A stretch of 64,000 nt of DNA from Candidatus Poribacteria bacterium (lineage in GTDB: Bacteria; Poribacteria; WGA-4E; PCPOR2b). Below are positions 15,759 through 53,088 of the stretch, piece by piece; within the stretch, counting starts at the first letter, position 1; the number at the start of each line of letters is the position of its first letter. The translations under genes and the position numbers were made by a program. Where the stretch lies: the NCBI GenBank assembly GCA_021295755.1, contig JAGWBT010000003.1, forward strand, positions 43,129 to 107,128, written 5' to 3'. The notes below the pieces were generated by a model. That model did not search any database. It was given only the letters and a program-made list of their open reading frames with translations, and had not been told where the DNA came from.

Positions 15759-15941
15759 CGATTTATAGTAGATATACTCTGTCTTGATCTCCGCGACGAG
15801 GCTTTGAAGGTTCGACTGCGTAAATTCTAATTCTACTAAATTATACCCTTTTGGTGCGGTCTTAACAAGAAAACCAAATTGAGCAAGAAAGGAGCTATAC
15901 AGCCTTGGTGATGCTAACGCGAAACAGGCTGAGTTGTTATT

Positions 15942-16715: not shown

Positions 16716-16756
16716 AACTGAATTCATTTCAATACTTATTTTCAGTGAGGTGATAT

Positions 16757-17623: not shown

Positions 17624-17680
17624 GGCGTATTGGACAATGTGTAATTCGTCCATTCAAATAGTAAGGAGTCAATAGGAATC

Positions 17681-25800: not shown

Positions 25801-27624
25801 ATGTATCTCACCAAACATCTCAATATGAGCCAGTCCAAAAACAGGCTATATTTTCTTCTCGCTCTGCTTGCTATGTATCTGCTGTTGACGGTTGCGACTG
25901 TCTTCGCTCAAGATGCGACTGACACAGAATACCGCCCCTTCCCGGGGATCGGCAGCCGTAACGCCGCATGGATCGCTGCCCAGCTGCATCTGTTGTTCGG
26001 TTCCTTCATCTTGGGTGTTCCGATGTTTGCGGTTGTCATTGAGTTTGTCGGGCTGAAAACGAAGGACAAACGGTATGACAAGATGGCGCAGGAGTTCATC
26101 AAACTGTGTATGGGAGCGTTCTCAACGACCGCGTTGATGGGCGGGGTACTTGTTTTTATCCTCATCTGGTGTTACCCGAAAGTGATGAACAAACTGTCAG
26201 GAATCTTCGGTCCTTCGATGATTTTCTACGTCATCCTGTTTTTTGGGGAGACCTTTACGCTCTATCTCTATTCTTACGGGTGGGATCGGATGCAGGGCAG
26301 GGTGTCGAAAATGTGGCACCTATTTCTCGGCGTGCTCCTGAACGTGTTCGGTACAGCGATTATGTTCGTCTCTAACGCTTGGCTGACATACCAGACAAGC
26401 CCAGCGATTATGGGCCCCAAACCCGACCACGAGGCAATTCCGCTTCATGATGAGTCGGGCGCATTCATCGGTACGCTGTGGCAGGCAATCAATAACTATA
26501 CGTGGATGCCTGTCAATATCCACCGTCTCATTGGGAATATAGCTTTCGGTGGTGCAATCGTTGGTGCCTATGCCGCCTTTCGGTTCCTTGCTGCCAAAAC
26601 GCAGGAAGACAGGGCGCATTACGACTGGATGGGATATACGGGCAATTTTATCGCACTGTGCGGATTGATTCCATTGCCATTCGCCGGATATTGGTTGGGA
26701 CGGGAAATCTATATGTTCAACCAAACGATGGGCATCAACATGATGGGAAGCCTCTTTTCTTGGCTGTTTATTATTCAAGCGGTGATGATTGGAGTGCTGT
26801 TCATCGGAGCGAATTACTATCTCTGGTCTGGCATGACCCGCATCGCAGGCGGCGAGGTATACGCTCGTTTTCGTCCCTACATGATCGCTATCATTGTTCT
26901 ATCTGTCGCAGTCTGGATGACGCCGCGCACACTCATTGTGACGCCTACGGAGTCGGCTGCAATGGGTGGGCCAAATCACCCGCTCGTTGGACTTTTCGGC
27001 TTGATGACAGCGAAGAACACGGTTGTCAATCTCATTATCTTGACCACCTTTCTCAGCTTTCTGTTTTACCGTCGATCCGGTAAAACACCGACAGTGAGTT
27101 GGCGCAAAGCGGGCAATATCGTCATCGCAGCGATTTTTGGACTGGCTGTCGCAGCGATTGTTACAATTGGGATCGTAGGGTTCAAGGTTAACACTGACTT
27201 CCGCGTCAATGTCCTAACGCCGATACAAGTGATGGTCGCGTTAGCTGTCATGGTTTTGGTAACGGTGATTGACTTGATTATGTATCGCAAAGCGATGCGT
27301 TCAAGCGAAATCAGTTGGGGGCAGATGACGGACCGGTCACAATATGTGCTGATTTTACTCGCCATTACCTTTACCTCATTGATGGGATTGATGGGCTACG
27401 CACGGTCGGGGCTTCGAGAGGCGTGGCATATTTTCGGTGTAATGCCCGACAAGTCGCCGGATGCACACACCCCGCTGCTTGCGGATGCCGTTAACATGAT
27501 TGCCGTTATTATAGTGATTTTCTTCGCTTTGGTAGGCTTTATTTTCTGGCTCGGTTTGTGGGGCGATAAGAAAAAAGAGGGACAGCCACCCGTTAAAGCA
27601 GAAGCCTCCGCAGGAGATGATTAA
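25801..27624 (+). CDS. Cytochrome bd oxidase subunit-I (CydA)-like polytopic membrane protein, enlarged (607 aa), with no adjacent cydB ('bd-like')
   Basis: By eye, it has a CydA-like helix 1 with a His (AAQLHLLFGSFILGVPMF) and a helix-5-like segment PVNIHRLIGNIAFGGAIVGAYAAFRFL. It has about 12 to 14 hydrophobic helices and a signal-like N-terminus. This is pattern recognition only. Confidence 0.5.
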   Translation: MYLTKHLNMSQSKNRLYFLLALLAMYLLLTVATVFAQDATDTEYRPFPGIGSRNAAWIAAQLHLLFGSFILGVPMFAVVIEFVGLKTKDKRYDKMAQEFIKLCMGAFSTTALMGGVLVFILIWCYPKVMNKLSGIFGPSMIFYVILFFGETFTLYLYSYGWDRMQGRVSKMWHLFLGVLLNVFGTAIMFVSNAWLTYQTSPAIMGPKPDHEAIPLHDESGAFIGTLWQAINNYTWMPVNIHRLIGNIAFGGAIVGAYAAFRFLAAKTQEDRAHYDWMGYTGNFIALCGLIPLPFAGYWLGREIYMFNQTMGINMMGSLFSWLFIIQAVMIGVLFIGANYYLWSGMTRIAGGEVYARFRPYMIAIIVLSVAVWMTPRTLIVTPTESAAMGGPNHPLVGLFGLMTAKNTVVNLIILTTFLSFLFYRRSGKTPTVSWRKAGNIVIAAIFGLAVAAIVTIGIVGFKVNTDFRVNVLTPIQVMVALAVMVLVTVIDLIMYRKAMRSSEISWGQMTDRSQYVLILLAITFTSLMGLMGYARSGLREAWHIFGVMPDKSPDAHTPLLADAVNMIAVIIVIFFALVGFIFWLGLWGDKKKEGQPPVKAEASAGDD

Positions 27625-27651
27625 CAATCAAACACAATCAGGACGAGAGCG

Positions 27652-29154
27652 ATGCAAAGAAGACTAATTAGAATTATCTGCCTAATTTTAATGGTTGTGA
27701 GTTTTATCGCCTATATCGCGAAAGCGCCGGCTTTCCCGATCGCTTCGGAAAACCTACTGCCGTGGTCTGCATGGTTTTTTATCTTTGCTTTGGCGAATAT
27801 CATACTCTGGCAGAGCGTGGTCAAACTCATGTCATTTGCGTTGATGGTCATCTGGTTCTATGCGTTTGCGGCCAGCATTGTTCCAGAAACATCGACTGCG
27901 ACGTTTGACCCTAACGCCGTAGACCGGACGCCGGATGCGTTTATTGAGGTTGGGGAGATAATCTTTAACGGGAAAGGAAAATGCAACACCTGCCATACAC
28001 TTGATCCGTCTGCGCCAAAAAGTCGCTGTCCCGATTTAACGGATATTGGCACTCGCGCTGCAACACGCCAACCGGGAATGACTGCGAAGGAGTATCTCAT
28101 CGAATCCACCTATGAACCCCACAAATTCCTTGTTCCCGGCTACAGCAACATTATGCCGCCCGTCTGGAAACCACCAATCAGTCTAACTGAGTTGGAAATC
28201 GAAACCGTCATTGCCTTCCTCCAGAGTCAGGGTGGAGAAGTGGATGTAACAAAGTTTGAGCCGCCCGTTGATATCGGAAGTGCGGAAGCCATAGCCGAGG
28301 AATTGCCACCCCTCCTCACAGGCGACGTAGAACGTGGTAAAAAGGTTTTTGTAGAGGGCGCGAAGTGTATCGCGTGTCACGCTGTCGCTGGTGTCGAGCA
28401 ACCTACCGGTCAAACGCTTGACGAAGGTGTTGAAGTTGTCGCTGCACCCGAATTGACGGATATCGCTGGGTTAAACAGTCTCCGGTATATTGAGGAATCC
28501 GTCCTATTACCGAATGCTCAAATTGTGAGCGGATACGGTTCCGTTACGGTGAAAACCGGCGGTGCCACAATTCAGGGAACGCTTGTTACGCAAGATAATG
28601 AGCAGATCAGTGTGCGTGTTAAGGACGTAGCCGGTAACGAAGAAGAGCACACCATTCTATTGAGCGAGCTCGATCCAGAGCCGATTGAAGAGTTGACAGA
28701 TCTGACAGGGAAAGGATACTTCTGGATTCAAGTAACGCTTGCCGACACGGGAGCCACCGTAAGTGGCGATCTCGTAGAAGAGGACGACGAAAACATTATA
28801 CTTCAGGCGGGTGGAGAGACGCAAACGGTTTCTAAGTCGAACGTGAAGGTTCAGGCGACATTGATTGACTTTGATGAGAATGTTATCGTTGGGGAATTGG
28901 TATCGGAAAATGAGGACGAAGTCATCTTAAACGTTGATGGTGAGGAGCAGATCATTGATACATTCGATATCGACGAAGGTCCGAACTACAGCCGTGCTTT
29001 CGGTAAGCGATTGGTTGTAACTTCCCCGATGCCGAATAACTTTCCGTTGTTGCTATCGGTTTCCGACATGAGCGATCTACTCGCCTATCTAGCAAGCTTA
29101 ACGGGTGCGACAGACGCGACAGCGGCTGAGGGAGCAGAGGCAACCGCCGAATAA
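27652..29154 (+). CDS. Diheme c-type cytochrome with an N-terminal membrane domain and three C-terminal beta-rich repeats of about 35 aa
   Basis: CNTCH and CIACH motifs. Internal repeats: TGATIQGTLVTQDNEQISVRVKD, TGATVSGDLVEEDDENIILQAGG and VIVGELVSENEDEVILNVDG. Confidence 0.7.
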   Translation: MQRRLIRIICLILMVVSFIAYIAKAPAFPIASENLLPWSAWFFIFALANIILWQSVVKLMSFALMVIWFYAFAASIVPETSTATFDPNAVDRTPDAFIEVGEIIFNGKGKCNTCHTLDPSAPKSRCPDLTDIGTRAATRQPGMTAKEYLIESTYEPHKFLVPGYSNIMPPVWKPPISLTELEIETVIAFLQSQGGEVDVTKFEPPVDIGSAEAIAEELPPLLTGDVERGKKVFVEGAKCIACHAVAGVEQPTGQTLDEGVEVVAAPELTDIAGLNSLRYIEESVLLPNAQIVSGYGSVTVKTGGATIQGTLVTQDNEQISVRVKDVAGNEEEHTILLSELDPEPIEELTDLTGKGYFWIQVTLADTGATVSGDLVEEDDENIILQAGGETQTVSKSNVKVQATLIDFDENVIVGELVSENEDEVILNVDGEEQIIDTFDIDEGPNYSRAFGKRLVVTSPMPNNFPLLLSVSDMSDLLAYLASLTGATDATAAEGAEATAE

Positions 29155-29170
29155 GGAGAGTTAAACCGCC

Positions 29171-29950
29171 ATGCAAAGATTATCCCTTTTCACAAAATGC
29201 CTAATCATATTTGTTGTGCTTTGGCTCTTTTTAAGATTCTTCATCGGTGGTGTATGGTCTGTGCCGTTACCCGCTAGCGTGATCTCAATGTATTTGGGGC
29301 TTATTCTATTGGCGATTCTGGTTCACGTGTCCGTCGAAGATGACAGGTTTCGAGAATTTCTCCGTCCTGTCAAAGAGACCTTGGCTGATGAGGATAGGGG
29401 GACAAGGCGTACTGTGTTGTTTGTCCTTATTCCTTTGGTTATGCTTGGTTTAAGTTTTTCTAGGTTGTCAACAAAGGCAGATCCACCAGCCGCGCTGCGC
29501 ACTGCCCATCCGGCGCCACCTGATGAACTGACCTACCGCGACAAGGTTATCGGTCCCACGCAACAGGTGGAAAACCCCTTCCGGCACCTTGAAAAAGATG
29601 ACAAGGAAGCATTTAAGGCTCATGTAGAGAACGGACGGCGGGTCTATTATCAAAACTGTTTCTACTGCCACGGCGACGATCTTGATGGCGAAGGACATTT
29701 CGCTCACGGTTTCAACCCACCGCCTGCAAACTTTCAGGACCCTGGGATTATTCCGAACTTCCAGGAATCTTTCTTCTTCTGGCGTATTAGTAAGGGAGGC
29801 CCCGGTCTGCCGCCAGCTGCAACCCCGTGGGATTCTGCCATGCCGGTCTGGGAGGATCACCTGACAGAGGAGGAGATTTGGGATGTGATTCTCTTCCTGT
29901 CTGAATACACAGGGTATCGACCACGGACGTTTGGTGAAGCGGCGCATTAA
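29171..29950 (+). CDS. Membrane-anchored monoheme c-type cytochrome
   Basis: CFYCHG motif and two N-terminal hydrophobic helices. Confidence 0.7.
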   Translation: MQRLSLFTKCLIIFVVLWLFLRFFIGGVWSVPLPASVISMYLGLILLAILVHVSVEDDRFREFLRPVKETLADEDRGTRRTVLFVLIPLVMLGLSFSRLSTKADPPAALRTAHPAPPDELTYRDKVIGPTQQVENPFRHLEKDDKEAFKAHVENGRRVYYQNCFYCHGDDLDGEGHFAHGFNPPPANFQDPGIIPNFQESFFFWRISKGGPGLPPAATPWDSAMPVWEDHLTEEEIWDVILFLSEYTGYRPRTFGEAAH

Positions 29951-29972
29951 GATTGGAGCGGAAGAAAAAACA

Positions 29973-31715
29973 ATGAAAAAGCAATCCTATAATACAATGT
30001 TGATTTCAGTCGCCGGTCTTATTTTGTTGTTAGTGGTTTTTCCAATTACATCTCTTGCCCAAGGGAAACAGGCACCCGCAGCCTCCGAAGCAGGAAAGGC
30101 ACTCTATGATGATAAGTGTGCGCACTGCCACGGTATAGAGGGAGCGGGCGATGGATCTGCAGCAGAAAACCTGTTGCCAAGACCGAGGGATTTCACGCGG
30201 GGGCTTTACAAAATCCGTTCGACGGAAAGCGCTCAACTGCCCACCGATCAAGATCTCTTTGACATCATATCGAACGGTATGCCGGGATCCTCAATGCCAG
30301 CTTGGAGCGAACTGCTGAGTGAGGATCAACGGTGGCAACTCGTTGCCCATATCAAAACATTCCACGACGGCTTTGAAGGGGCTTCACCGCGGTTAATTGA
30401 TGTGTCGGGCAAAGTTCCATATTCTGAAGAGAGTGTCGCAAAAGGAAAAGAATTTTACACCACTCTTGGGTGTGTCGATTGCCACGGAGTGATTGGCAGA
30501 GGCGATGGTACGTCCGCCCCAGATCTGACCGATGAGTGGGGCTTTCGCACATGGCCCGCCAATCTATGGGAACAGTGGAATTATCGGGGCGGTGCGACAA
30601 CTGAGGATATTTTCAAACGATTCATCGGTGGTATTGCTGGCTCGCCGATGCCTTCGTTCATCTCAAGTTTTCGACTCGGTCTGACAGATGAGGAATCGGC
30701 TCGTATGAATGAGCTAGAACTCAAAATGGATGACGACGGTCTTTCAGAAGCGGAAGACGAAGAATACGCAGCGCTTGAGGAAAAGTTGTTTATGTTTGAA
30801 GACATCATGCTCAAGGTTGAAGAAGGCGAAGAACTTGAACCTGACGAACAGACTAAACTCGATACAGCCCTGAAGCCGATTTTTGAGAAAAGCTGGCACC
30901 TCGCAAATTATGTAAAATCCCTAGGACCCGAAGAGCGACCACCAGCGGCAGTCGGCGACAAAGTACTACGCTCACAATATCGCGCCGGTGCCTTGCCGGG
31001 CATAAACGATGAAGTGTGGAATGAAATTCAAGAAGCCAGTTATTTTCCGCTGGTCGGTCAAATTGTTATTGACCCTCGACAATTCAACCCCTCGATCGAT
31101 TCAATAATGGCAAAGTCGTTCTATAACGATAATGAAATTGCGTTTCTATTTACATGGGATGATCGGACGAAAACCCTTCCCCAGACAGACGACGAGACCG
31201 GAGAGACGGTTGAAGATGCTCTAGCAATTCAATTTCCGGTGAAGATTGCTGAAGGTCCGACGGATCCCAAACCTTACTTCATCTGGGGCGATCGGCTTCC
31301 CGTCTATCTCTGGAGTTGGAAGGTCGCTGAGCCGTCAACGGTGACAGAGATGACTGCGAAGGGGATCGATAAAGCGACTGTCCAAGCTGATCAAAGCCTA
31401 ATACAGGCTGAAGGGGTTTACGAAGATGGGCAATATCAACTATGGGTTAAAAGATCCCTCACAACCGATGACAAAAGAAATGACGTGCAGTTTACACCGG
31501 GCGTATTCATACCCATCGCTTTTTCTGCATGGGATGGCGCAAATGGTGATGTAAAAACGAAGCGAGCCATTTCAACGTGGTACACATTCGTCCTTGATCC
31601 CGTTCCATCGAACAAGCGATTTGTCTATCCGCCGCTGGTTGCCCTTATCTCCGTTGGCCTCCTTTTCGGCTTGAGAAGTAGTGTCAGGAGACGACAGAAT
31701 ACAGAAGAAGTTTAA
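29973..31715 (+). CDS. Diheme c-type cytochrome with a large C-terminal domain and a C-terminal TM anchor
   Basis: CAHCHG and CVDCHG motifs, a signal peptide, and a terminal hydrophobic helix YPPLVALISVGLLFGL. The start is the ATG at 29973 after GGAG; the listed ORF begins at an upstream TTG that overlaps the previous gene. Confidence 0.7.
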   Translation: MKKQSYNTMLISVAGLILLLVVFPITSLAQGKQAPAASEAGKALYDDKCAHCHGIEGAGDGSAAENLLPRPRDFTRGLYKIRSTESAQLPTDQDLFDIISNGMPGSSMPAWSELLSEDQRWQLVAHIKTFHDGFEGASPRLIDVSGKVPYSEESVAKGKEFYTTLGCVDCHGVIGRGDGTSAPDLTDEWGFRTWPANLWEQWNYRGGATTEDIFKRFIGGIAGSPMPSFISSFRLGLTDEESARMNELELKMDDDGLSEAEDEEYAALEEKLFMFEDIMLKVEEGEELEPDEQTKLDTALKPIFEKSWHLANYVKSLGPEERPPAAVGDKVLRSQYRAGALPGINDEVWNEIQEASYFPLVGQIVIDPRQFNPSIDSIMAKSFYNDNEIAFLFTWDDRTKTLPQTDDETGETVEDALAIQFPVKIAEGPTDPKPYFIWGDRLPVYLWSWKVAEPSTVTEMTAKGIDKATVQADQSLIQAEGVYEDGQYQLWVKRSLTTDDKRNDVQFTPGVFIPIAFSAWDGANGDVKTKRAISTWYTFVLDPVPSNKRFVYPPLVALISVGLLFGLRSSVRRRQNTEEV

Positions 31716-31849
31716 CCGCAACGTATGAGGGTAGACCATAACTCTTATTGCGAGAAGGTTCAAATATCTTGACTGTATTTGAAGCAGTCAAACATAATTG
31801 CCTCTCACTTATAACCTGTTCAAACAATAATTTCAAAAGGAGTTCAATC

Positions 31850-32629
31850 ATGAAAACCAAAGTTGTTACAATCCTAACCCTGCTCATTGCATGTGTTTAC
31901 GTTACCACTGCCATCGCTGCCGGTGGGGACGAAGAGGTCGAGTCGCTAGTCTTCCCGGCTTCCTATAAAGCAATGAGTGTCTCTAATGGTGGCACTATCA
32001 GCGGAATGGTAAAATTTGATGGCGCCGCGCCCGAGATGAAAAAACTCGAAATTACCAAAGACACACAAGTTTGTGGTAAAACCGACAAGCATGATGAGTC
32101 GATTGTTCTTGGCGAAGGAAATGGTTTGCAGAACACCATCGTCTATCTGATGGACATCTCATCAGGAGCCGATTTTCCAAGCGATGCCAAATACGAAATC
32201 GATCAGAAAGGCTGCCACTTTAAGCCACATGTGCGCCTCCTGCCGGTTGGAAAACGGCTGACCATGATCAATCCTGACAGGATCAACCATAACGTTCATA
32301 TCTTTAGTTCGGTGAATCCCGCATTTAATAAATCGCAGCCCGGAACTAGACGGAAGATGAACGTTAAGGCCATAAAGAAAGCCGAAGGGCCCGTACCAGT
32401 TAAATGCGATGTGCACGGCTGGATGAAGGCTTGGATTGCATACATTCCCCATCCGTATTTTACGGTCACCGACGAGAACGGGCAGTACACCCTTGAAAAT
32501 GTTCCGCCGGGAACCTACAAGTTAGGCTATTGGCAAGAAGCCTGTGGTTCAAATAAAGACGCACCCGTTTCGGTTACTGTTGAAGCTGGGGGAACAGTTG
32601 CACAAGACTTTACACTCGCGCTAAAATGA
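31850..32629 (+). CDS. Secreted cupredoxin-like protein, paralogue of 24846-25595
   Basis: Signal peptide; H (INHNVHIF) ... C-x2-H-x2-M (KCDVHGWM). An AAGGAG RBS precedes the ATG at 31850. Confidence 0.6.
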   Translation: MKTKVVTILTLLIACVYVTTAIAAGGDEEVESLVFPASYKAMSVSNGGTISGMVKFDGAAPEMKKLEITKDTQVCGKTDKHDESIVLGEGNGLQNTIVYLMDISSGADFPSDAKYEIDQKGCHFKPHVRLLPVGKRLTMINPDRINHNVHIFSSVNPAFNKSQPGTRRKMNVKAIKKAEGPVPVKCDVHGWMKAWIAYIPHPYFTVTDENGQYTLENVPPGTYKLGYWQEACGSNKDAPVSVTVEAGGTVAQDFTLALK

Positions 32630-32643
32630 GCAAATGAGGGAAG

Positions 32644-33606
32644 ATGTTCCCTATCAAAGTCGAGAATCTCTCGTACGCTTATGGGGCTCGGCGGGCACTT
32701 GTAGATGTAACCTTTAGCATCTCACAAGGCGAAGTCTTCGGGTTTCTTGGCCCAAACGGCAGCGGTAAAACCACACTCTTTAAGATACTTTCTACCCTGA
32801 TTCCGGTTAATCAAGCTGCGGTCAATATTCTTGGTCATGAGCTTGCCAGAGAATCGCAAAGCGTCAGGCAGTATCTGGGTGTGGTTTTTCAGCATCCGAG
32901 TTTGGATCTAAAACTCACAGTCACGGAGAATCTCCGGCATCACGGTCACCTGTACGGGCTGCGGGGTAAAACGCTGAAGCAGCGAATCCAAGAGGCGCTC
33001 AACCAATTTGAATTGACCGATCGCGCTCATGAGGGCGTGGAAACACTATCGGGTGGACTAAGAAGGCGTGCGGAGTTGGCAAAGGCGACCCTTCACAAGC
33101 CGAAGCTTCTGCTACTGGACGAGCCGAGCACCGGACTCGATCCCGGGGCACGCAGAAGTTTCAGAGAATATTTGGCGAGTTTGCAAGAAACAACCGTTAT
33201 CCTGACAACCCACATTTTGGATGACGCCGAAGCGTGTGACCGCGTGGGGATTCTCAACGCGGGGGAATTGGTTGCCATCGGAACACCGGACGAACTGAAA
33301 GATCATGTTGGTGGAGATGTTGTCATCGTTGATTCTCCAGCGCCTGAAGAACTAGCGCCGAAAGTAAGCCAACGATTTGGGCGTACGGCAACATTGATTG
33401 AGGGGCTGTTACGAATCGAATGCCACAACGGACATGAATTTGTTCGAGATGTAGTCGCTGCGTTTCCGAGCGAAATCCGATCCGCGCGCTTTGGAAAGCC
33501 CACATTGGAAGATGTGTTTATCAAACTGACAGGACGTCGCTTTGAGGAAAACGGTTCCAGTCAAAATTCAGTAGAATTGAAAAGCAGCCACACTGAAACG
33601 CACTAA
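32644..33606 (+). CDS. ABC transporter ATP-binding protein (ABC-2 exporter type)
   Basis: Walker A GPNGSGKTT, signature LSGGLRRR and Walker B LLLLDEPSTGLD. Confidence 0.85.
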   Translation: MFPIKVENLSYAYGARRALVDVTFSISQGEVFGFLGPNGSGKTTLFKILSTLIPVNQAAVNILGHELARESQSVRQYLGVVFQHPSLDLKLTVTENLRHHGHLYGLRGKTLKQRIQEALNQFELTDRAHEGVETLSGGLRRRAELAKATLHKPKLLLLDEPSTGLDPGARRSFREYLASLQETTVILTTHILDDAEACDRVGILNAGELVAIGTPDELKDHVGGDVVIVDSPAPEELAPKVSQRFGRTATLIEGLLRIECHNGHEFVRDVVAAFPSEIRSARFGKPTLEDVFIKLTGRRFEENGSSQNSVELKSSHTETH

Positions 33607-33614
33607 ACTGAACT

Positions 33615-34409
33615 GTGCCAATATCAAGATTCTTACTCCCTGTGGCGACGATTTGGTGGCGTGAGATCATTCGATTTCTACGCCAACGGAGCCGTCTATT
33701 GAGCGCGGTTGCGCAACCGTTAATCTTTTGGCTGCTTTTGGGTGGTGGGCTGAACGCTTCATTTAAGCCGCCCGGCGTTCCCGAAGGAACGAGCTACATC
33801 GAATATTTTTACCCCGGTATCATCACGCTTACACTACTGTTTACAGCAATTTTTGCAACAATTTCGGTTGTCCAAGACCGTCGAGAAGGTTTTCTTCAAG
33901 GTGTGCTTGTTGCCCCGGTTTCAAGATGGGTTATCGTGCTGGGACAAGCACTTGGCGGCACAACGTTAGCACTCTTGCAGGGTGGTCTTTTTCTGTTTCT
34001 CGCACCGATAGTTGGAGTGCCGCTAAGCTTCTTCTCCGTGCTCGCAGCACTCGGTGTGATGTTGACCTTGTCCTTTGGCTTGACGAACTTAGGATTAATG
34101 ATCGCGTGGCGAATGGATTCTACACAAGGTTTTCATGCGATTATGAATCTTATTCTAATCCCAATTTGGCTGCTCTCCGGTGCTTTCTTCCCCGTATCTG
34201 GGGTGCCGATACTCCTTGAGTGGGTAATGAAATTAAATCCGCTTACCTACGGCGTTGCAGCCTTACGTCGTTGTCTATACTTTAACGCACCCATAATTTC
34301 TGAGGGAATTCCTCAACTCGCGTTATCGCTACTTGTTACCGGCGCGTTCTGCGTTATTACATACTTTGGTGCTGCTCGAACGGCATACCGTCGTCCGAAT
34401 GTAGCGTAA
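33615..34409 (+). CDS. ABC-2 family transporter permease
   Basis: Six-TM ABC-2 type, 264 aa, directly downstream of the ATPase. Confidence 0.75.
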   Translation: MPISRFLLPVATIWWREIIRFLRQRSRLLSAVAQPLIFWLLLGGGLNASFKPPGVPEGTSYIEYFYPGIITLTLLFTAIFATISVVQDRREGFLQGVLVAPVSRWVIVLGQALGGTTLALLQGGLFLFLAPIVGVPLSFFSVLAALGVMLTLSFGLTNLGLMIAWRMDSTQGFHAIMNLILIPIWLLSGAFFPVSGVPILLEWVMKLNPLTYGVAALRRCLYFNAPIISEGIPQLALSLLVTGAFCVITYFGAARTAYRRPNVA

Positions 34410-34453: not shown

Positions 34454-35081
34454 ATGAATTGGCTGAATTTTCCTGCATGGCTTCCAGAGAATGTCTCAAC
34501 TTTTGGAAAAGGGGTCGATGACCTCTTTATCCTAATCTACTGGATTACCTCAATTGTATTTTTGGCTGTTATGGCGGTACTCATTGTCTTCATCATTAAG
34601 TGGAGTACATTGAAGGTAGCACAACCCTTGAAATCGTATGGACTGCTGCGACCACCGTCATTGTGTTTGGACTTGCAATGTTGAGTCTGCCCCAATGGAA
34701 CAAGATTAAATTCCCTTCCCAATTTCCCGGCGACCCCGGCGCTGTCGTTCAAGTGAGTGGGAAACAATTTAACTGGGATATGACTTATCCAGGACCTGAT
34801 GGCGAATGGGGCACTGACGATGACTTAGTACTTGAGAACCAGCTGCATGTCCCGGTTAACGAGATTGTGCATATCAGGCTCACATCTATTGATGTTATTC
34901 ATAGCTTCTTTGTCCCTCAACTCCGGCTCAAGCAGGATGCCCTTCCTGGAAGGTTTATAAACATGTGGTTTGAAGCGACGAAACCGGGTACGTATTTGGA
35001 CACTCCGGGATGCTTGGATACCTTACCGTCCACACGGCTGAGGACTACGCAGCGTGGACAAATGAACGGTGGGGAGAATAA
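34454..35081 (+). pseudogene. coxB: Heme-copper oxidase subunit II (coxB/ctaC-like) interrupted by two -1 frame changes and lacking the CuA Cys-x-E-x-Cys-Gly motif
   Basis: The TM1 segment (34454-34684) is in frame A. The TM2 and cupredoxin-fold part (STTLEIVWT, VSGKQFNWDM, DVIHSFFVPQL, KPGTY; 34600-about 34998) is in frame B. The C-terminus (FGHSGMLGYLTVHTAEDYAAWTNERWGE, ending with TAA at 35079) is in frame C. No Cys pair occurs in any frame. Confidence 0.6.
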
Positions 35082-35105
35082 TGAAAAGAAAGGAGTCAAT
35101 ATAGA

Positions 35106-36953
35106 ATGAATGATCACGCACATGAATCTCATGATCATCATCATGAAGAGAGTTTTGTTCGTAAATACCTCTTTTCGCTCGATCATAAAATGATTGGCAA
35201 GCAGTTCCTGATCTTTGGTCTGGTTATGTTCATGGTTGGGGGCGGGCTAGCACTGCTTTTCCGTTGGCAACTCGCATGGCCCGACAGGCCCCTTCCCATC
35301 ATTGGAGTCTCCAAAGCATATCAGGAAGAGGGCGAAGTCACAACCGCTGCAGACCGTAAATGGGAGGAACGGTTCGATGATGACAAAGAAACATGGATAG
35401 AGACGAACATGCCGGCCGGCGTAATAGACCCAGCATTTTATAATTCGCTGTTTACAATGCATGCGACTATCATGGTTTTCTTTGTGGTTGTGCCGCTACT
35501 TGTTGGCGCGTTTGGTAATTTCCTCATACCATTGATGATCGGGACCAGAGATATGGCTTTTCCTGTCCTGAATATGCTATCTTTCTGGTTCAACATGCTG
35601 GGAGGGGTTATCATGATGGCTGGGTTCTTCGTCCCCGGTGGGCACGCTGCTGCGGGCTGGACTGGATACGCACCGCTCTCTTCAGTCCCTGAGCTTAGCG
35701 GTGTAGATTGGGGACAGAATCTCTGGTGCATCAGCCTTATCGTCATGGGTATCTCCTCACTGATGGGGTCCATCAACTATATCACCACGATTATCAATAT
35801 GCGAGCACCGGGGATGACCTGGTTCCGTCTCCCACTTGCGATTTGGGCGCTCTTTATCGTCGCTATTCTTCTACTGCTTGCATTCCCTGTGGTCGCTTCT
35901 GCGCTCGCACTAATCCTCTTTGACCGAATGGCGGGAACGTCCTTCTTTTTGGCGGAAGGTGGTGGCGACTCGTTGCTGTGGCAACACCTCTTCTGGTTCT
36001 TCGCGCATCCAGAGGTTTATATCCTCATTCTGCCCGGCATGGGCATGGCATCAGAGATGCTTCCTGTCTTTGCCAGAAAGCCCATCTTCGGCTATAAATC
36101 AATGGTTTTTGCCATGATATCGATCGCCTTTCTCAGTTGGATTGTGTGGGGACACCACATGTTCCAGAGTGGGATGAACCCTGCGCTCGGAGCGAGTTTC
36201 ATGACCACAACCATGTTAATCGCTGTCCCTTCGGCAATCAAAACCTTTAACTGGATCGGCACCCTTCACCGTGCATCAATCCGATTCACGGTGCCAATGT
36301 TAAACACGTTGGCTTTTGTCTCGATGTTTGTTATCGGTGGTCTTAGCGGTATCTACATGGCGAACTCGCCAGTCGATATCTACATCCACGATACATACTA
36401 CATTGTGGCGCATATCCATTACGTTGTCTTCGGTGGAAGCGTCTTCGCTATCTTTGGCGGCATCTTTTACTGGTTCCCTAAGATGTTCGGGCGACACATG
36501 AATGCGACGCTTGGCAAGATTCATTTCTGGATCACCTTCCTCGCCTTTAACGGTGTCTTTTTCCCGATGCACATCCTCGGTGTTGGTGGACACATGCGAC
36601 GCATCGCCAACCCGACGCAGTATGAATTCTTACAACATATGCAAGGGATAAATGTGTTTATTACGATCAGTGCATTTATTTTAGGTGTGGCTCAAATTCT
36701 GCTGCTAGTCAACGTATTCTGGAGTATCTTCCGCGGGAAAGTCGCTGAACAGAATCCGTGGCAAGCAAATACTCTCGAGTGGCATGCACCAACGCCTGTC
36801 CCTCACGGCAACTTCGGAGCGATTCCGCAGGTGTATCACGGACCCTATGAGTACAGCGTTCCCGGTGCTGAAACGGACTGGACGCCGCAGACGGAGCCGA
36901 ACGGCGAATCAGTGCACGGTGAACCCGTCCCTGCCGGAGCTAGTGCGGATTAA
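35106..36953 (+). CDS. coxA: Heme-copper oxidase subunit I
   Basis: LFWFFAHPEVYILILPGMG, the TM6 ligands HH in HIHDTYYIVAHIHYV, 12 or more helices, and 615 aa. Confidence 0.92.
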   Translation: MNDHAHESHDHHHEESFVRKYLFSLDHKMIGKQFLIFGLVMFMVGGGLALLFRWQLAWPDRPLPIIGVSKAYQEEGEVTTAADRKWEERFDDDKETWIETNMPAGVIDPAFYNSLFTMHATIMVFFVVVPLLVGAFGNFLIPLMIGTRDMAFPVLNMLSFWFNMLGGVIMMAGFFVPGGHAAAGWTGYAPLSSVPELSGVDWGQNLWCISLIVMGISSLMGSINYITTIINMRAPGMTWFRLPLAIWALFIVAILLLLAFPVVASALALILFDRMAGTSFFLAEGGGDSLLWQHLFWFFAHPEVYILILPGMGMASEMLPVFARKPIFGYKSMVFAMISIAFLSWIVWGHHMFQSGMNPALGASFMTTTMLIAVPSAIKTFNWIGTLHRASIRFTVPMLNTLAFVSMFVIGGLSGIYMANSPVDIYIHDTYYIVAHIHYVVFGGSVFAIFGGIFYWFPKMFGRHMNATLGKIHFWITFLAFNGVFFPMHILGVGGHMRRIANPTQYEFLQHMQGINVFITISAFILGVAQILLLVNVFWSIFRGKVAEQNPWQANTLEWHAPTPVPHGNFGAIPQVYHGPYEYSVPGAETDWTPQTEPNGESVHGEPVPAGASAD

Positions 36954-37161: not shown

Positions 37162-38304
37162 ATGTATCGTCCATGGCTTCATAGACTTGCTGTACTTACC
37201 GCTGTAACGACTTTCATCCTGATCTGCATGGGTGGGCTTGTAACTAGCACGAATTCAGGGATGGCTGTCCCCGATTGGCCCACAACATTCGGATACAACA
37301 TGTTTCTCTATCCGCTCTCTAAAACGGTCAGCGGATTCCTGTTCAGCGTTGATCCAAATCTCCAAGCTGATTTGGATACGGGCAATCTGTCCGTGGGGCT
37401 ACGGAAGGCACTTGAAAAAAACGAGATTTCCGTATCAGAAAATGTTATAATTTCAACCGAAGAGCAGGGCAGTAAGTGGAGACTCGCAGATCGAAAGAAT
37501 GAACGAACCTATACGCTGATTAAATCGGGCGAGCGGCTTGATGTATATGTTCATGGCGTGCTGTACGAACATAGCCATCGGTTGATTGGTTCTATCGTTG
37601 GTTTTCTGACGATTGCATTGATGGTATCAATCTGGGCGAAAGATAGGCGGAAATGGATGAAATGGCTCGGCGTTATCGCCCTCGTTGCAGTTATTGCTCA
37701 GGGGGTGATGGGTGGCCTCCGTGTTACGAATCTCAGTAGGGTTCTGGCTATCATACACGCCTGTTTTGCCCAAGCGTTTTTTGCGTTGACTGCAAGTCTT
37801 GCGTTGTTTACTTCGCTCAGTTGGTTGCAAATGTCGGCGAAAATTGAGATTACAGATGCTGCGCGCCTGAAAAATTTGAGTCTCATCACATTGGGACTTA
37901 TCTATATCCAATTCATCTTTGGTGCCGTGTTGAGGCATACAGGGAATCGACTGGATGCCCACCTGCTTTTCGCGGGCCTAGTAACAATTCACATATTTCT
38001 CCTTTTGAGACGAATCTCGAAAAATTATCCGGAAAATCCAGCCCTTGTTCGTCTTATTTTGCTGTTGAGTGGTCTGCTTGCCGTACAATTGACTTTGGGT
38101 ATCGGGGCATACCTCGCCGAGTTCACCGCTTTTGGCGAAGGCGTGCCTCCTGTTGCCGGTGTAATAATCACAACGGCCCATGCTGCCATTGGTGCTTTAA
38201 TGTTGGTTGTTTCTGTCGTACTAACACTGGACGTTTTTCGATTCACAAGTAGATCAGAACCTGTTGCAAGTCGAAGTATCGTTTCCGATGAGGTGTCTGC
38301 ATGA
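37162..38304 (+). CDS. ctaA: Heme A synthase (CtaA/COX15 family)
   Basis: N-terminus RLAVLTAVTTFILICMGGLVTST and His-containing helices (HRLIGS, HACFAQ, HLLFAGLVTIH). The predicted periplasmic loop 1 carries no Cys pair. Confidence 0.8.
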   Translation: MYRPWLHRLAVLTAVTTFILICMGGLVTSTNSGMAVPDWPTTFGYNMFLYPLSKTVSGFLFSVDPNLQADLDTGNLSVGLRKALEKNEISVSENVIISTEEQGSKWRLADRKNERTYTLIKSGERLDVYVHGVLYEHSHRLIGSIVGFLTIALMVSIWAKDRRKWMKWLGVIALVAVIAQGVMGGLRVTNLSRVLAIIHACFAQAFFALTASLALFTSLSWLQMSAKIEITDAARLKNLSLITLGLIYIQFIFGAVLRHTGNRLDAHLLFAGLVTIHIFLLLRRISKNYPENPALVRLILLLSGLLAVQLTLGIGAYLAEFTAFGEGVPPVAGVIITTAHAAIGALMLVVSVVLTLDVFRFTSRSEPVASRSIVSDEVSA

Positions 38305-39203
38305 TATCAACAACAGAGACGCTAGGGGTTGACCTATCCCAAATGAGTCGTCGAATGTCGGCTCTTGTTGAACTGACAAAGCCACGGCTCGTTTCGATGA
38401 TACTGATTACAACATCAGCCGGCTTTTATATTGCCTCCTCGCAACCGCTTAATTGGTTGCAACTAATTCACACCATCGTCGGCACGGGGTTATCAGCAGC
38501 GGGCGTATTAGCGCTCAATCAGTACCTTGAACGTGATCTGGACGCCCAGATGGTGAGAACGTGCCACCGCCCGCTGCCGGATCAACGTCTTCAACCGACG
38601 ACAGCCCTGTTTTTTGGGGTTTTATTGACCGTCAGCGGTTTGCTCTATATGGCATTTTCCGTGAACGCCCTAGGCGCATTGGTCATCTCTGCTATCGTTG
38701 TGACGTATCTGTTTGTCTATACCCCACTGAAGCAGAAAACATCGCTCTGTACTGTTGCAGGTGCGTTTCCGGGGGCGTTACCACCTGTTATCGGTTGGGT
38801 TGCAGCGCGAGGGACACTCAATATCGAAGCGTGGGTGCTTTTTGCAATTCTGTTCCTTTGGCAACTACCACACTCGCTGTCAATCGCGTTTATCTATCGT
38901 GAAGAGTACGCCCAAGCTGGATTCCGTTTGTTGCCGGTTATCCATCCTGACGGCAAGAGCACGAACAGACAGATTGTCATCAACTGTCTTGGACTTCTCG
39001 TTGTAGCGCTACTGCCTACGTTAATAGGTATTGCTGGTATCATTTATTTTTTCGCCGCGCTTACGTTGAGCATCATCTTTCTTGGATTTGGCATCAACCT
39101 ATCTATTTCTCGATCGACCGTAGCAGCAAAACGATTGCTGTACGCCTCATTGATGTATCTGCCGCTTGTGTTTCTGGTCATGGCACTCGACAGATTGGTA
39201 TAA
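38301..39203 (+). CDS. ctaB: Protoheme IX farnesyltransferase (heme O synthase)
   Basis: UbiA-family signatures (NQYLERDLDAQMVRTCHRPLP), 300 aa, and an overlap with the ctaA stop codon. Confidence 0.88.
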   Translation: MISTTETLGVDLSQMSRRMSALVELTKPRLVSMILITTSAGFYIASSQPLNWLQLIHTIVGTGLSAAGVLALNQYLERDLDAQMVRTCHRPLPDQRLQPTTALFFGVLLTVSGLLYMAFSVNALGALVISAIVVTYLFVYTPLKQKTSLCTVAGAFPGALPPVIGWVAARGTLNIEAWVLFAILFLWQLPHSLSIAFIYREEYAQAGFRLLPVIHPDGKSTNRQIVINCLGLLVVALLPTLIGIAGIIYFFAALTLSIIFLGFGINLSISRSTVAAKRLLYASLMYLPLVFLVMALDRLV

Positions 39204-39421
39204 TGGCATGGGGGTATCAAATTTAAATGAGTGCTAACGAAAAACAGGGTCAAAACCGACGGATCGGTTGGTTCTTATTCGCGATATTTATCATCCTATT
39301 TATTTGTGCAACGATTCTCGCAATCGTCAAAAACTAATGTATTGTGATCGAGGTTTTCTAGCCTCGATTGTATCGCAATAAAGATTTTCCACCTTTTTTA
39401 CGTTTCATTTTTTTACCGACG

Positions 39422-40027
39422 ATGAATGAACTAGAACACACATCATACGAACGTGCGGAAGAGGAAAACCGACCAATCAGCAATGCACGGTTAGCTGTGT
39501 TGGTACTCCTAGGAGCCGAAATCATGTTTTTCGCAGGGTTGATCGGGACATTCCTTGTATTCCGTTTGGGGAGTGTCACTTGGCCCCCCCCATCGCAGGC
39601 TGATGTTCGTTTGCCCATTGGTGTGACTGGACTGAATACAATCGTCCTGCTCTTGAGCGGCTATACAATGTTTCAGGGGCTACGAGCCATTCGGCAGGAT
39701 CGTCAGAAAGAACTCAGAAACTGGCTGTTCGCGACGGGACTTCTTGGTGTAATTTTCCTTGTGGTGCAAGGCTCTGAATGGGTCCGTTTAGTGCATCACG
39801 GTTTTACACTTTCATCGGGGGTATACGGCTCAGTCTTCTATGTCCTCATCGGTTGTCATGCTTTGCATGTTCTGATAGCAGTTTTCTGGCTGTTAGCGGT
39901 TTTCGCTCGGGCAATAGCCGGCCGGTTTTCTGCGAATCAATACGTTGGAGTTGAAGTTTGTGCAATTTACTGGGCGTTTGTTGTCGTGTTATGGCCCCTT
40001 CTTTATATTCTTGTATACTTAATCTAA
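39422..40027 (+). CDS. coxC: Heme-copper oxidase subunit III (short 5-TM type), copy 1
   Basis: COX3 family signature GSVFYVLIGCHALHVLIAVFWL. The start is uncertain: the ATG at 39422 is used here, and an upstream TTG at 39368 is possible. Confidence 0.75.
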   Translation: MNELEHTSYERAEEENRPISNARLAVLVLLGAEIMFFAGLIGTFLVFRLGSVTWPPPSQADVRLPIGVTGLNTIVLLLSGYTMFQGLRAIRQDRQKELRNWLFATGLLGVIFLVVQGSEWVRLVHHGFTLSSGVYGSVFYVLIGCHALHVLIAVFWLLAVFARAIAGRFSANQYVGVEVCAIYWAFVVVLWPLLYILVYLI

Positions 40028-40077
40028 ATGGAGTTTAGCGGAGAGCAGGACCTCTCTAGCTCCCTGGAGATTCAGAA

Positions 40078-40299
40078 ATGACAGCCATACCCAAAAAAAG
40101 GCACCAATCAAAAAAGAAAAAAGCTCTTGATTCGATAAATGAAGAAACCGTTGTGCAATGTCAGTCGCAAAAACCGATTTGGAAAGTTGTTGCTGATATT
40201 GGGTCACAGATTCCCTTGGCAACGTGGGAAAAAGTCCCCGATGATGCTTCAATTAATTTCAAGCATTATCTTTACGGGGAACCCAAAAGGAACGCATGA
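40078..40299 (+). CDS. Putative antitoxin of a type II toxin-antitoxin pair (VapB-like)
   Basis: 73-aa Lys-rich ORF whose stop codon overlaps the PIN-toxin start codon (ATGA). Its C-terminal motif (...INFKHYLYGEPKR) resembles those I associate with PIN-partner antitoxins. Confidence 0.5.
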   Translation: MTAIPKKRHQSKKKKALDSINEETVVQCQSQKPIWKVVADIGSQIPLATWEKVPDDASINFKHYLYGEPKRNA

Positions 40300-40712
40300 A
40301 TGCCGTATTTGCTGATGCGGGATATTGGATTGCGCTGTTCAATCCTCGCGATCGGTTGCATGACATAGCAACTGCTGTGTCTCAAACTATAGAGAATCGA
40401 TCCATTGTTACCAGTCAGTTGGTGTTAATGGAATTCCTCAATTACTATGCCTCACTGGGTCGGATATTTCGGCAACGGGCAGTAGAAGTCGCGAGAAGTC
40501 TTCAACAATATCCGAACGTTGAAGTTGTCCCTTTGTCTGATGAACAGTTTGAAGCGGCATTGACTATGTATGCTCAGCGGCAAGATAAAACATGGGGGCT
40601 CATCGACTGTGCATCATTCCTCATTATGCAACAACGGCGTATTACAGAAGCACTTGCCTATGATGAACATTTCAGGCAAGCAGGTTTCATTCCTTTATTA
40701 CGCGAGAATTAG
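40296..40712 (+). CDS. vapC: PIN-domain toxin (VapC family)
   Basis: PIN acidic motifs: the N-terminal FADAGYWIALFNPRD and the distal LIDCASFLIMQQRRITEALAYDEHF; 138 aa. Confidence 0.75.
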   Translation: MNAVFADAGYWIALFNPRDRLHDIATAVSQTIENRSIVTSQLVLMEFLNYYASLGRIFRQRAVEVARSLQQYPNVEVVPLSDEQFEAALTMYAQRQDKTWGLIDCASFLIMQQRRITEALAYDEHFRQAGFIPLLREN

Positions 40713-40861
40713 ATGAAGGGGTACCTATCACGTCGGTGTGTCTGACAAGTTTTTCCAATGCAGGTCGGGATTGTTGGAAACGGTACGGCGTCAAAACTGA
40801 TTTTACAGTATGCAAATTCGTATAAGTCGTTATCTTCATTTCGCGAGTAAGGAGATTTCTT

Positions 40862-41116
40862 ATGATTCGTCGATATTTTTCACTCATAGTAGGGATTATG
40901 GTTCTTGCGTTGCTGATACCAACAGTTGTGGAAGCCTGTCCCTCATGTAAGACGATTGATGACCCAATTGTTCAGGGCTTTAAGTGGAGTATTCTATTCC
41001 TTATGGCAATGCCCTATATTGTTTCCGGCCTAATTGGCGGTGGCGTGTTCTATGTATACTACCGCACACATCGGGCCGGTAATCGTAAACCACCTTCAAA
41101 TGTGAAAGGAGTGTGA
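40862..41116 (+). CDS. Small membrane protein with a periplasm-proximal CxxC (CPSC) motif; possible oxidase accessory or assembly subunit
   Basis: 84 aa with two hydrophobic helices and an AGGAG RBS. It sits between the vapBC pair and the second coxC. Confidence 0.4.
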   Translation: MIRRYFSLIVGIMVLALLIPTVVEACPSCKTIDDPIVQGFKWSILFLMAMPYIVSGLIGGGVFYVYYRTHRAGNRKPPSNVKGV

Positions 41117-41119
41117 AAA

Positions 41120-41764
41120 TTGGAAGAAACTACAACACTCGATCATTCCGCAGATGTCTACGAACCATCCCTCACGCCCGATAGTCTGGGCAAGCTGGGG
41201 ATGTGGCTCTTTCTTATTAGCGATGCGATGTCCTTTGGTGCGTTGCTCGCTGCCTACGGTGCCGTGCGCGCCGGTGCAGCGGAATGGGCACCCCCAGCCG
41301 AAATACTCGGCATTAACCTCACAGCGGGCATGACCTTTCTGTTAATCTGCAGTAGTGTTACGATGGTCAAAGCCCTTGAAGCTATCCAGAACGGTAACCA
41401 ATCGAGGATGTGTACCTTTCTCGGCTTGACGATTCTGGGTGGACTAATCTTCCTAGGGCTGCAAGCGTATGAATGGACAGCACTAATCAAGCACGGTCTC
41501 ACCCTCACCACAATTCCTCATCACGGGTTGACTGGTGCTGAGATTTCCGGCTCGGTGCTTTTTGGTCCAACTTTCTACACTATTACAGGTTTCCACGGTG
41601 CCCACGTCACCGGCGGGGTCATCTACCTTATCGTTATCTTGATTAAGGGGCTGCGAGGAACATACACAGCCGAATATAACCACAAAGTTGAGATTTTGGG
41701 GCTATATTGGCACTTCGTTGACCTAATCTGGATCATGGTCTTTACTTTTGTCTATCTACTGTAA
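41120..41764 (+). CDS. coxC: Heme-copper oxidase subunit III, copy 2
   Basis: COX3 family segment MWLFLISDAMSFGALLAAY...TITGFHGAHVTGGVIYL. It has a TTG start with an AAGGAG RBS and is paralogous to 39422-40027. Confidence 0.75.
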   Translation: MEETTTLDHSADVYEPSLTPDSLGKLGMWLFLISDAMSFGALLAAYGAVRAGAAEWAPPAEILGINLTAGMTFLLICSSVTMVKALEAIQNGNQSRMCTFLGLTILGGLIFLGLQAYEWTALIKHGLTLTTIPHHGLTGAEISGSVLFGPTFYTITGFHGAHVTGGVIYLIVILIKGLRGTYTAEYNHKVEILGLYWHFVDLIWIMVFTFVYLL

Positions 41765-41784
41765 TCACCGAATGGAGAATCAAG

Positions 41785-42126
41785 ATGGAACACGCTCATA
41801 AAGAACATCCGAAATACATGAGAATATTTTGGATTCTTTTCGCACTCACAATCCTTGAAGTCGCTGTCGCCATGCCTTTTTTGAAGGCGGTTTTGGGGCA
41901 GACTGCGACTGCACTCCTGCTAATTGGTATGGCATGTTCTAAAGCGGTTTATGTCGCGCTCTATTTCATGCACCTGAAATTTGAGAAAAGAACCTTGATG
42001 ATCATTGCGCTGACACCATTTATTATCTGTGTTTTTCTCGTGTTTATGCTGCTTCCGGATCTGATGGACGATGCTCGCCATGAGGGAGCTAAAGCGGAAT
42101 CTCAGGTCGTTGATACATCTCGCTAA
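41785..42126 (+). CDS. coxD: Heme-copper oxidase subunit IV (CoxD/CyoD-like)
   Basis: 113 aa with three TM helices; HPKYMRIFWILFALTILEV is typical of prokaryotic subunit IV. Confidence 0.65.
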   Translation: MEHAHKEHPKYMRIFWILFALTILEVAVAMPFLKAVLGQTATALLLIGMACSKAVYVALYFMHLKFEKRTLMIIALTPFIICVFLVFMLLPDLMDDARHEGAKAESQVVDTSR

Positions 42127-42188
42127 TGTAAAAAGTAACGCGTGAAACGTGAGATTTTTTATGTTGCACGTATTAGGGTTTATGCCTT

Positions 42189-50239: not shown

Positions 50240-50278
50240 AATCACGCCTTGAATGTCAATTTAGATCGGAGTTTGCCA

Positions 50279-51867: not shown

Positions 51868-51887
51868 CGTATAAATGGAGTCAACCA

Positions 51888-52388: not shown

Positions 52389-52470
52389 GAGTTGATCATA
52401 GGGAAAGCGAAAGGGATTTTTCTCACACAAGTTGCGATAGACCCGCCATCGTATCCTATTTCACTCACTT

Positions 52471-52980: not shown

Positions 52981-53088
52981 GGCTGAAATTCACGTCAAAA
53001 CATGTGGACTGGTGTAATCAAAAACTCTGCGTTCTCCGTGTCTCTGCGGTGAAATACATGACAGCATATCAAGTTTTAAGGAACACTC

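What the first reader, a model, noticed from the sequence alone, without database searches (positions are those of the whole stretch)
34454..35081. coxB is split into three reading frames and shows no CuA cysteine pair in any frame, while the rest of the oxidase operon is intact
Two successive -1 frame changes are needed to read a full subunit II, one near 34597-34605 and one near 34995-35001. After conceptual repair, the C-terminus reads KPGTY-FGHSGM..., like the CuA-less subunit II of quinol oxidases (CyoA has GFSGM), rather than the CxExCGxxHxxM of cytochrome c oxidases. Three readings are possible. The indels may be sequencing errors at short homopolymers (AAG/TTT). The gene may be a recent pseudogene. 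Or the aa3-type enzyme may in fact be a quinol oxidase. Each changes how the respiratory chain should be read, given the many cytochromes c upstream.
Basis: seen in the sequence. Interest (0 to 1): 0.6.

Follow-up and report, generated by a model that had tools for sequence, protein, structure and literature searches.

The report
Two short deletions break coxB here
In this one deposited Poribacteria genome the gene for cytochrome c oxidase subunit II lacks two short pieces (25 and 28 bases), but other assemblies of the same population carry it intact with a normal copper site, so the damage is private to this record and not a new kind of oxidase.

Summary
The cause is different: two deletions of 25 nt (at 34601|34602) and 28 nt (at 34995|34996), not single-base slips.

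The first deletion removes residues 50-58 (YRFQEGRKA). The second removes residues 190-198 (EIPCAELCG), which hold the CuA cysteine pair.

Six loci from five other ENA assemblies of the same population carry an identical, intact 681-nt coxB encoding CAELCGFGHSGM. These assemblies match the window at 99.87-100% outside the two gaps. The window's 628 nt equal that gene exactly once the two segments are removed.

These are the only indels inside genes anywhere in the 64 kb. Of the 120 best homologues, 119 have the CuA motif. The one exception is this record's own 169-aa product (MCE2393190.1).

Subunit I lacks the four quinol-site residues of E. coli CyoB, and its best solved-structure matches are cytochrome c oxidases. 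The quinol-oxidase reading is refuted.

What remains is either an assembly or curation error in this metagenome-assembled genome (my preference, about 0.6) or a very recent private null allele (about 0.33). Only the raw reads can decide. This is an ordinary finding of low interest.

The parts
34454..34601 (+). coxB 5' piece: residues 1-49 (first transmembrane helix) plus the first base of the Tyr50 codon
   Evidence: ORF list and translation. 100% identical to the intact gene in L002-L005, L014 and L015.
34601..34602 (+). Junction of the 25-nt deletion. ATCGCTTCCAAGAAGGTCGCAAAGC is missing, which removes residues 50-58 (YRFQEGRKA) and shifts the frame.
   Evidence: Alignments. No microhomology at the junction.
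34602..34995 (+). coxB middle piece: residues 59-189 (second transmembrane helix and most of the cupredoxin domain, including the CuA ligand His158 in DVIHSF). NCBI annotates it as the 169-aa protein MCE2393190.1, reading 34600..35109.
   Evidence: Pfam COX2, E=3e-14.
34995..34996 (+). Junction of the 28-nt deletion. TGAAATCCCCTGTGCTGAACTCTGTGGT is missing, which removes residues 190-198 (EIPCAELCG, holding CuA ligands Cys193, Glu195 and Cys197) and shifts the frame. The junction position is ambiguous by 1 nt.
   Evidence: Alignments.
34996..35081 (+). coxB 3' piece: (F)GHSGMLGYLTVHTAEDYAAWTNERWGE plus the stop codon. It retains CuA ligands His201 and Met204.
35106..36953 (+). coxA, A-family haem-copper oxidase subunit I, intact (615 aa). 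The same protein sequence is found on 8 other contigs.
   Evidence: Pfam COX1, E=3.5e-153..
37162..39203 (+). ctaA (COX15, haem A synthase) and ctaB (UbiA-family haem O synthase), both intact
   Evidence: Same gene lengths as in the other assemblies.
39368..42857 (+). Rest of the oxidase cluster: COX3-like gene (39368..40027), a toxin-antitoxin pair with a PIN domain (40078..40712), an 84-aa ORF, COX3 (41120..41764), COX4_pro (41785..42126) and an SCO1/SenC copper chaperone (42189..42857)

Best explanation
The organism, a member of Candidatus Poribacteria, has an ordinary aa3-type (A-family) cytochrome c oxidase. Its subunit II carries a normal binuclear CuA centre that takes electrons from the c-type cytochromes encoded upstream.

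In this one deposited metagenome-assembled genome, two internal segments of coxB are missing: 25 nt and 28 nt, 393 nt apart. I think the most likely cause is an error introduced when the record was made. That could be a local misassembly, or a join or excision step after assembly such as closed gaps, removed N runs or cut-out flagged spans. On this view the record does not reflect the state of the living cell.

Shown:
- the two deletions and their exact boundaries;
- that they are unique to this record;
- that the same population has an intact gene with a CuA site.

Inferred: that the cause is technical rather than mutational.
For: 1. Twelve loci from seven assemblies (six ENA SPAdes or scaffold assemblies and one Logan assembly) tile the whole 64-kb window at 99.87-100% identity outside the two gaps. 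Six loci from five ENA assemblies cover coxB, and all carry an identical intact 681-nt gene.

2. The window's 628 nt equal that gene minus the two segments, with no other difference.

3. Across 64 kb the only other indels are +4 nt at 23130 and +3 nt at 56917, both intergenic. Both large deletions therefore fall in one 681-nt gene, about 1% of the window.

4. At roughly 0.05% divergence, two independent mutational deletions of 25 nt or more in one gene are very unlikely. One local technical fault producing both is less so.

5. The junctions have 0 and 1 nt of microhomology, and no flanking direct repeats, so replication slippage is not indicated.

6. The broken products (169, 148, 143 and 76 aa) are on no other contig. 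The 169-aa protein is a one-member cluster from one contig.

7. The junction sequences are absent from the JGI metagenome contigs, and junction 2 is also absent from the GTDB representative genomes.

8. Local assembly errors that corrupt protein-coding genes are documented in metagenome-assembled genomes, for example 13 in a 1.13-Mb genome (PMC7111523).

9. The rest of the operon, including the copper chaperone SCO1, is untouched.
Against: No reads were available, so the artefact is inferred and not shown.

A pure de Bruijn graph assembler cannot create a junction k-mer that no read contains. A technical origin therefore needs a non-graph step (scaffold joining, gap closing, removal of Ns or of flagged spans, or polishing) that I could not identify.

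The deleted segments do not resemble the common sequencing adaptors I could recall. The best local score was 10 for segment 2, reached by 3 of 400 control 28-mers.

No other lesion of this kind occurs in the window, so no systematic artefact is demonstrated.
Confidence: 0.6

Rival explanations
1. A real, very recent, private null allele. The dominant strain in that one sample lost coxB function through two deletions that show no microhomology at the junctions. These could be end-joining repair of breaks or one complex repair event. The strain would respire with another oxidase, such as the bd-like enzyme encoded at 25801..27624.
For: The junctions are clean, and short-read graph assemblers normally need reads that contain them. 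A CydA-like oxidase gene sits in the same window. The flanking genes are intact, as expected if the event is recent. Host-associated bacteria do accumulate pseudogenes (general knowledge).
Against: Every other assembly of the population that was read across coxB has the intact gene. Two frame-breaking deletions lie 393 nt apart, while there is no other coding indel in 64 kb and no base substitution in the 628 nt that remain. That pattern is improbable for independent mutations at about 0.05% divergence. No other record holds the broken products or junctions.
Confidence: 0.33
2. The enzyme is naturally a CuA-less quinol oxidase, with a CyoA/QoxA-like subunit II.
For: It rests only on the look of the repaired C-terminus, KPGTY-FGHSGM.
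Against: The missing cysteines were removed by an out-of-frame 28-nt deletion, not replaced by substitution. The same population's intact gene reads CAELCGFGHSGM. Of the 120 best homologues, 119 have CxExCx3Hx2M, and the exception is this record itself. The best solved match for the intact subunit II is Paracoccus aa3 subunit II. CoxA has V44/L48/F108/S111 at the CyoB quinol-site positions R71/D75/H98/Q101 (the CyoB sequence was recalled from memory, and its numbering agrees with the literature).
Confidence: 0.01
3. Single-base sequencing errors at homopolymers, or two programmed -1 ribosomal frameshifts, so that a full-length protein is still made.
For: Each junction shifts the frame by -1.
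Against: The frame shifts come from losses of 25 and 28 nt. Neither junction has an X XXY YYZ slippery heptamer (read from the sequence). No relative needs a frameshift. Even a frameshifted product would lack 18 residues, including both CuA cysteines.
Confidence: 0.01

Closest known systems
aa3-type cytochrome c oxidase subunit II (CoxB/CtaC), e.g. Paracoccus denitrificans, PDB 1QLE_B / 1AR1_B
   Same: The intact allele of this population has two N-terminal transmembrane helices and a cupredoxin domain. It has the full CuA ligand set, with CAELCGFGHSGM aligning to CSELCGINHAYM (E=2e-27). The operon also holds coxA, ctaA, ctaB, coxC, a subunit IV gene and SCO1.
   Different: The copy in this window lacks residues 50-58 and 190-198 and is out of frame twice. 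As written it cannot give a functional subunit.
Quinol oxidase subunit II (E. coli CyoA, Bacillus QoxA)
   Same: The same fold and a distant sequence match (1FFT_B at E=6e-11, 6KOB_B at E=4e-15). The repaired window sequence superficially lacks the cysteine pair, as CyoA does.
   Different: CyoA lost its CuA ligands by in-frame substitution and pairs with a subunit I that binds quinol. Here the ligands were cut out by a frame-breaking deletion, the intact allele has them, and CoxA lacks the quinol-site residues.
Local assembly errors in metagenome-assembled genomes (Chen et al. 2020, Genome Res, PMC7111523)
   Same: A short stretch of consensus that differs from the true genome and corrupts a protein-coding gene in a public record. 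Such errors are reported at about one per 90 kb in one curated case.
   Different: That paper defines such an error by the absence of even one perfectly supporting read, which I could not test. Here the error would be two clean deletions with no repeat nearby.

Membership tests
CuA-containing subunit II of A-family haem-copper cytochrome c oxidases (CoxB/CtaC) | Cupredoxin (COX2) domain preceded by transmembrane helices | tested here: met
   Pfam COX2 PF00116, E=3e-14. Both domains are on record for the intact 226-aa homologues.
CuA-containing subunit II of A-family haem-copper cytochrome c oxidases (CoxB/CtaC) | Six CuA ligands: H...CxExCx3Hx2M | tested here: not met
   In the window, C193, E195 and C197 are deleted, and H201/M204 lie in a different frame from H158. 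The intact allele of the same population meets this feature, as do 119 of 120 homologues.
CuA-containing subunit II of A-family haem-copper cytochrome c oxidases (CoxB/CtaC) | One uninterrupted reading frame | tested here: not met
   Three frames are needed, and the longest ORF is 169 aa.
Quinol oxidase (bo3 / aa3-600 type) | Subunit II lacks CuA ligands by substitution within an intact frame | tested here: not met
   The ligands were lost by a 28-nt out-of-frame deletion seen in no other record searched.
Quinol oxidase (bo3 / aa3-600 type) | Subunit I carries the quinol-site residues (E. coli CyoB R71, D75, H98, Q101) | tested here: not met
Cytochrome c oxidases outrank quinol oxidases in the search of solved structures.
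Programmed -1 ribosomal frameshifting | Slippery heptamer at the shift site, and the shift conserved in relatives | tested here: not met
   Neither junction has an X XXY YYZ motif. All relatives read in a single frame.
Local assembly error in a metagenome-assembled genome | No read perfectly supports the consensus across the site | not testable with these tools
   No reads were available. Indirect support: the lesion is unique to one record and the two deletions are clustered.
True pseudogene (null allele) | The lesion is present in the DNA of the organism, shown by read support or an independent assembly | tested here: inconclusive
   No independent assembly carries it. The source sample itself could not be examined.

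The most novel reading that the evidence does not exclude
The deletions are real. One natural Poribacteria strain has just knocked out its aa3 cytochrome c oxidase through two deletions, 393 nt apart, that show no microhomology at the junctions, and one of them removes exactly the CuA cysteine pair. The strain would live on its bd-like oxidase. That would be a snapshot of the first step of respiratory-chain loss in an uncultivated lineage.
Probability: 0.3. Interest if true: 0.25.

Novelty: not a real feature. Interest (0 to 1): 0.08.

Why it matters
The main value is as a caution. Read at face value, this record would suggest either a CuA-less aa3 oxidase or an organism unable to pass electrons from its many c-type cytochromes to oxygen. 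Neither holds for the population.

NCBI lists the truncated 169-aa product (MCE2393190.1) as 'cytochrome c oxidase subunit II'. It should not be used for alignments or for metabolic reconstruction.

If the deletions prove real, they would only mark a very young strain-level loss of one terminal oxidase.

Tried and rejected
1. Single-base homopolymer errors: rejected by the DNA alignments.

2. A generally error-prone assembly: rejected. There is no other coding indel in 64 kb against same-population assemblies, nor in about 17 kb against the sister species L001.

3. Slippage between direct repeats: rejected. Microhomology is 0 and 1 nt, and no repeats flank either deletion. The only oddity is a 10-nt, 90% complementary inverted match between segment 1 and a site 17 nt upstream of segment 2, which I judged to be chance.

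4. Hairpins spanning the deleted segments: only weak folds, -6.5 and -5.5 kcal/mol over about 75-80 nt. Not pursued.

5. Excision of adaptor-like sequence: the segments were compared with 12 adaptor sequences recalled from memory. Best scores were 6 and 10. The 10 is a shared ATCCCCTGTG with the 454 B adaptor, far too weak for any screen. UniVec and organelle screening databases were not available.

6. Other carriers of the lesion: exact look-ups of four possible gene products (169, 148, 143 and 76 aa) found nothing. The 148-aa query starts at a GTG codon and may not have been a valid test. Scans for junction 1 (JGI metagenome contigs) and junction 2 (JGI metagenome contigs and GTDB representative genomes) found nothing.

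7. A scan for the intact allele in the GTDB representatives also found nothing, so the species has no exact match among them.

8. A literature search on Poribacteria oxidases returned nothing relevant.

Full report
**What is in the sequence**

Between 34454 and 35081 the homology to cytochrome c oxidase subunit II runs through three reading frames.
- Residues 1-49 lie in the frame of the ATG at 34454.
- Residues 59-189 lie in the frame of the 169-aa ORF 34600..35109.
- The tail (F)GHSGMLGYLTVHTAEDYAAWTNERWGE* lies in the third frame and ends at 35081.

No frame contains a CxExC pair. The conceptually joined protein hits Pfam COX2 (E=3e-14). It also matches 226-227-aa CoxB proteins of Candidatus Poribacteria at E down to 1e-121.

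**What the lesions really are**

The protein alignment shows that the joined sequence is not short by a residue or two. It lacks nine residues at each junction: YRFQEGRKA (50-58) and EIPCAELCG (190-198; numbering).

DNA alignment to the sister species L001 (91% identity across the aligned coxB stretch, about 85-88% across the flanking genes) and to same-population assemblies shows two clean deletions.
- 25 nt (ATCGCTTCCAAGAAGGTCGCAAAGC) between 34601 and 34602.
- 28 nt (TGAAATCCCCTGTGCTGAACTCTGTGGT) at 34995|34996, with the position ambiguous by 1 nt.

Both lengths leave a remainder of 1 when divided by 3, which explains the two -1 shifts. These are not homopolymer slips.

**The decisive comparison**

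The window's CoxA protein (NCBI MCE2393191.1) is found, residue for residue, on eight other contigs. I fetched the DNA around it and around three other window genes. This gave twelve loci from seven assemblies that tile the whole window:
- ENA ERZ15614602, ERZ15614518, ERZ15614276, ERZ15614677, ERZ15614239 and ERZ23495260;
- Logan SRR35761419.

A further ENA assembly, ERZ15614336, was fetched separately for coxB. The twelve tiling loci match the window at 99.87-100% identity outside the two gaps. Six loci from five ENA assemblies cover coxB: L002-L005, L014 and L015. All six carry the same intact 681-nt gene. The window's 628 nt are identical to that gene once the two segments are removed, with no other difference.

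Across the full 64 kb, the only other indels against these assemblies are +4 nt at 23130 and +3 nt at 56917. Both are intergenic.

**The intact gene is a normal CuA subunit**

The intact allele reads ...KPGTYEIPCAELCGFGHSGM..., giving the ligands H158, C193, E195, C197, H201 and M204. Its best solved relative is subunit II of Paracoccus denitrificans aa3 oxidase, with CAELCGFGHSGM aligned to CSELCGINHAYM.

Of the 120 best database homologues, 119 contain CxExCx3Hx2M. The single exception is P0057 (MCE2393190.1), which is this record's own 169-aa ORF.

**Subunit I is not a quinol oxidase subunit**

CoxA is an A-family subunit I (Pfam COX1, E=3.5e-153). Its best matches among solved structures are actinobacterial, Paracoccus and mitochondrial cytochrome c oxidases, ahead of bo3 and aa3-600 quinol oxidases.

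Aligned to E. coli CyoB, it has V44, L48, F108 and S111 where CyoB has the quinol-site residues R71, D75, H98 and Q101. The quinol-oxidase reading is refuted. The resemblance of KPGTY-FGHSGM to CyoA is a by-product of the 28-nt deletion.

Programmed frameshifting is also excluded. Neither junction has a slippery heptamer, no relative needs a shift, and the product would still lack the copper site.

**Artefact or real allele**

The lesion was found in no other record.
- The 169-aa product is a one-member, one-contig cluster.
- None of four plausible gene products of the broken locus is on record elsewhere.
- The junction sequences are absent from the JGI metagenome contigs, and junction 2 is also absent from the GTDB representative genomes.

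The two deletions lie 393 nt apart in one 681-nt gene, about 1% of the window. Meanwhile the 628 nt that remain have no substitution, and the window differs from other assemblies by only about 0.05%. Two independent mutational deletions of 25 nt or more in that short time are very unlikely.

The junctions have 0 and 1 nt of microhomology and no flanking repeats, so slippage is not indicated.

Local assembly errors that corrupt genes are documented in metagenome-assembled genomes (PMC7111523). One local technical fault could produce both deletions.

Against the artefact view, graph assemblers need reads that contain a junction, so a non-graph step must be assumed. I could not identify that step. 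The segments do not resemble common adaptors.

I put an assembly or curation error at about 0.6 and a real, very recent private null allele at about 0.33. Only the raw reads can settle it.

**Context**

The window encodes a full aerobic chain:
- a Rieske protein, split cytochrome b and an octahaem 1041-aa cytochrome c (15238..20806);
- further c-type cytochromes;
- a CydA-like protein (25801..27624);
- the aa3 operon with ctaA, ctaB, two COX3 genes, COX4_pro and SCO1.

The c-type cytochromes upstream therefore do have a CuA acceptor in this population.

**Verdict**

The most interesting reading is refuted. What remains is an ordinary defect of one public record, or at most a private pseudogene allele. 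Interest is low.

Noticed in passing
window 35106..36953 (CoxA residues ~57-103): CoxA carries an insertion of roughly 40-45 residues (PIIGVSKAYQEEGEV...ETNMP) between the first and second transmembrane helices, relative to E. coli CyoB. Most solved-structure matches also start only at residue ~103-111. NCBI names the protein 'cbb3-type', but it is an A-family subunit I.
   Followed up: no
window 25801..31715: A 607-aa CydA-like gene (Pfam Cyt_bd_oxida_I on its counterparts in L001/L002) is followed by three c-type cytochrome genes: 500 aa (2 CxxCH), 259 aa (1 CxxCH) and 594 aa (2 CxxCH plus an EB_dh domain). This looks like a bd-like oxidase module linked to c-type cytochromes.
   Followed up: partly
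window 15238..20806: A Rieske protein and a split cytochrome b (257 aa and 288 aa) are followed by a 1041-aa cytochrome c with eight CxxCH motifs, an unusual bc-type complex.
   Followed up: no
window 39368..41764: Two COX3 paralogues (39368..40027 and 41120..41764) are separated by a small ORF plus a PIN-domain gene (40078..40299 and 40296..40712). This looks like a toxin-antitoxin pair inserted in the oxidase operon.
   Followed up: no
L001 8095..9021 and 10716..11039; window 39743: The sister species has a D12 DNA methyltransferase between the ABC ATPase and permease genes, and a DUF4926 gene between coxB and coxA. A 1-nt difference at window 39743 coincides with a shorter (173-aa) first COX3-like gene without a Pfam hit in L001.
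   Followed up: no
window 23130 and 56917: These are the only other indel differences from same-population assemblies: +4 nt (CGTC) and +3 nt (ATG), both intergenic. Each was seen against one comparator only.
   Followed up: partly
window 31748..34409: A CarboxypepD_reg-domain protein, an ABC ATPase and an ABC-2 permease sit directly upstream of coxB. The arrangement is conserved in the sister species. Their role is unknown, and a link to oxidase maturation is only a guess.
   Followed up: no
window 48296..54390: A cluster of genes with PCP_red domains, Usp domains, a ParA/CbiA-like ATPase and a radical SAM/SPASM protein (Pfam marks on L009). Function unclear.
   Followed up: no
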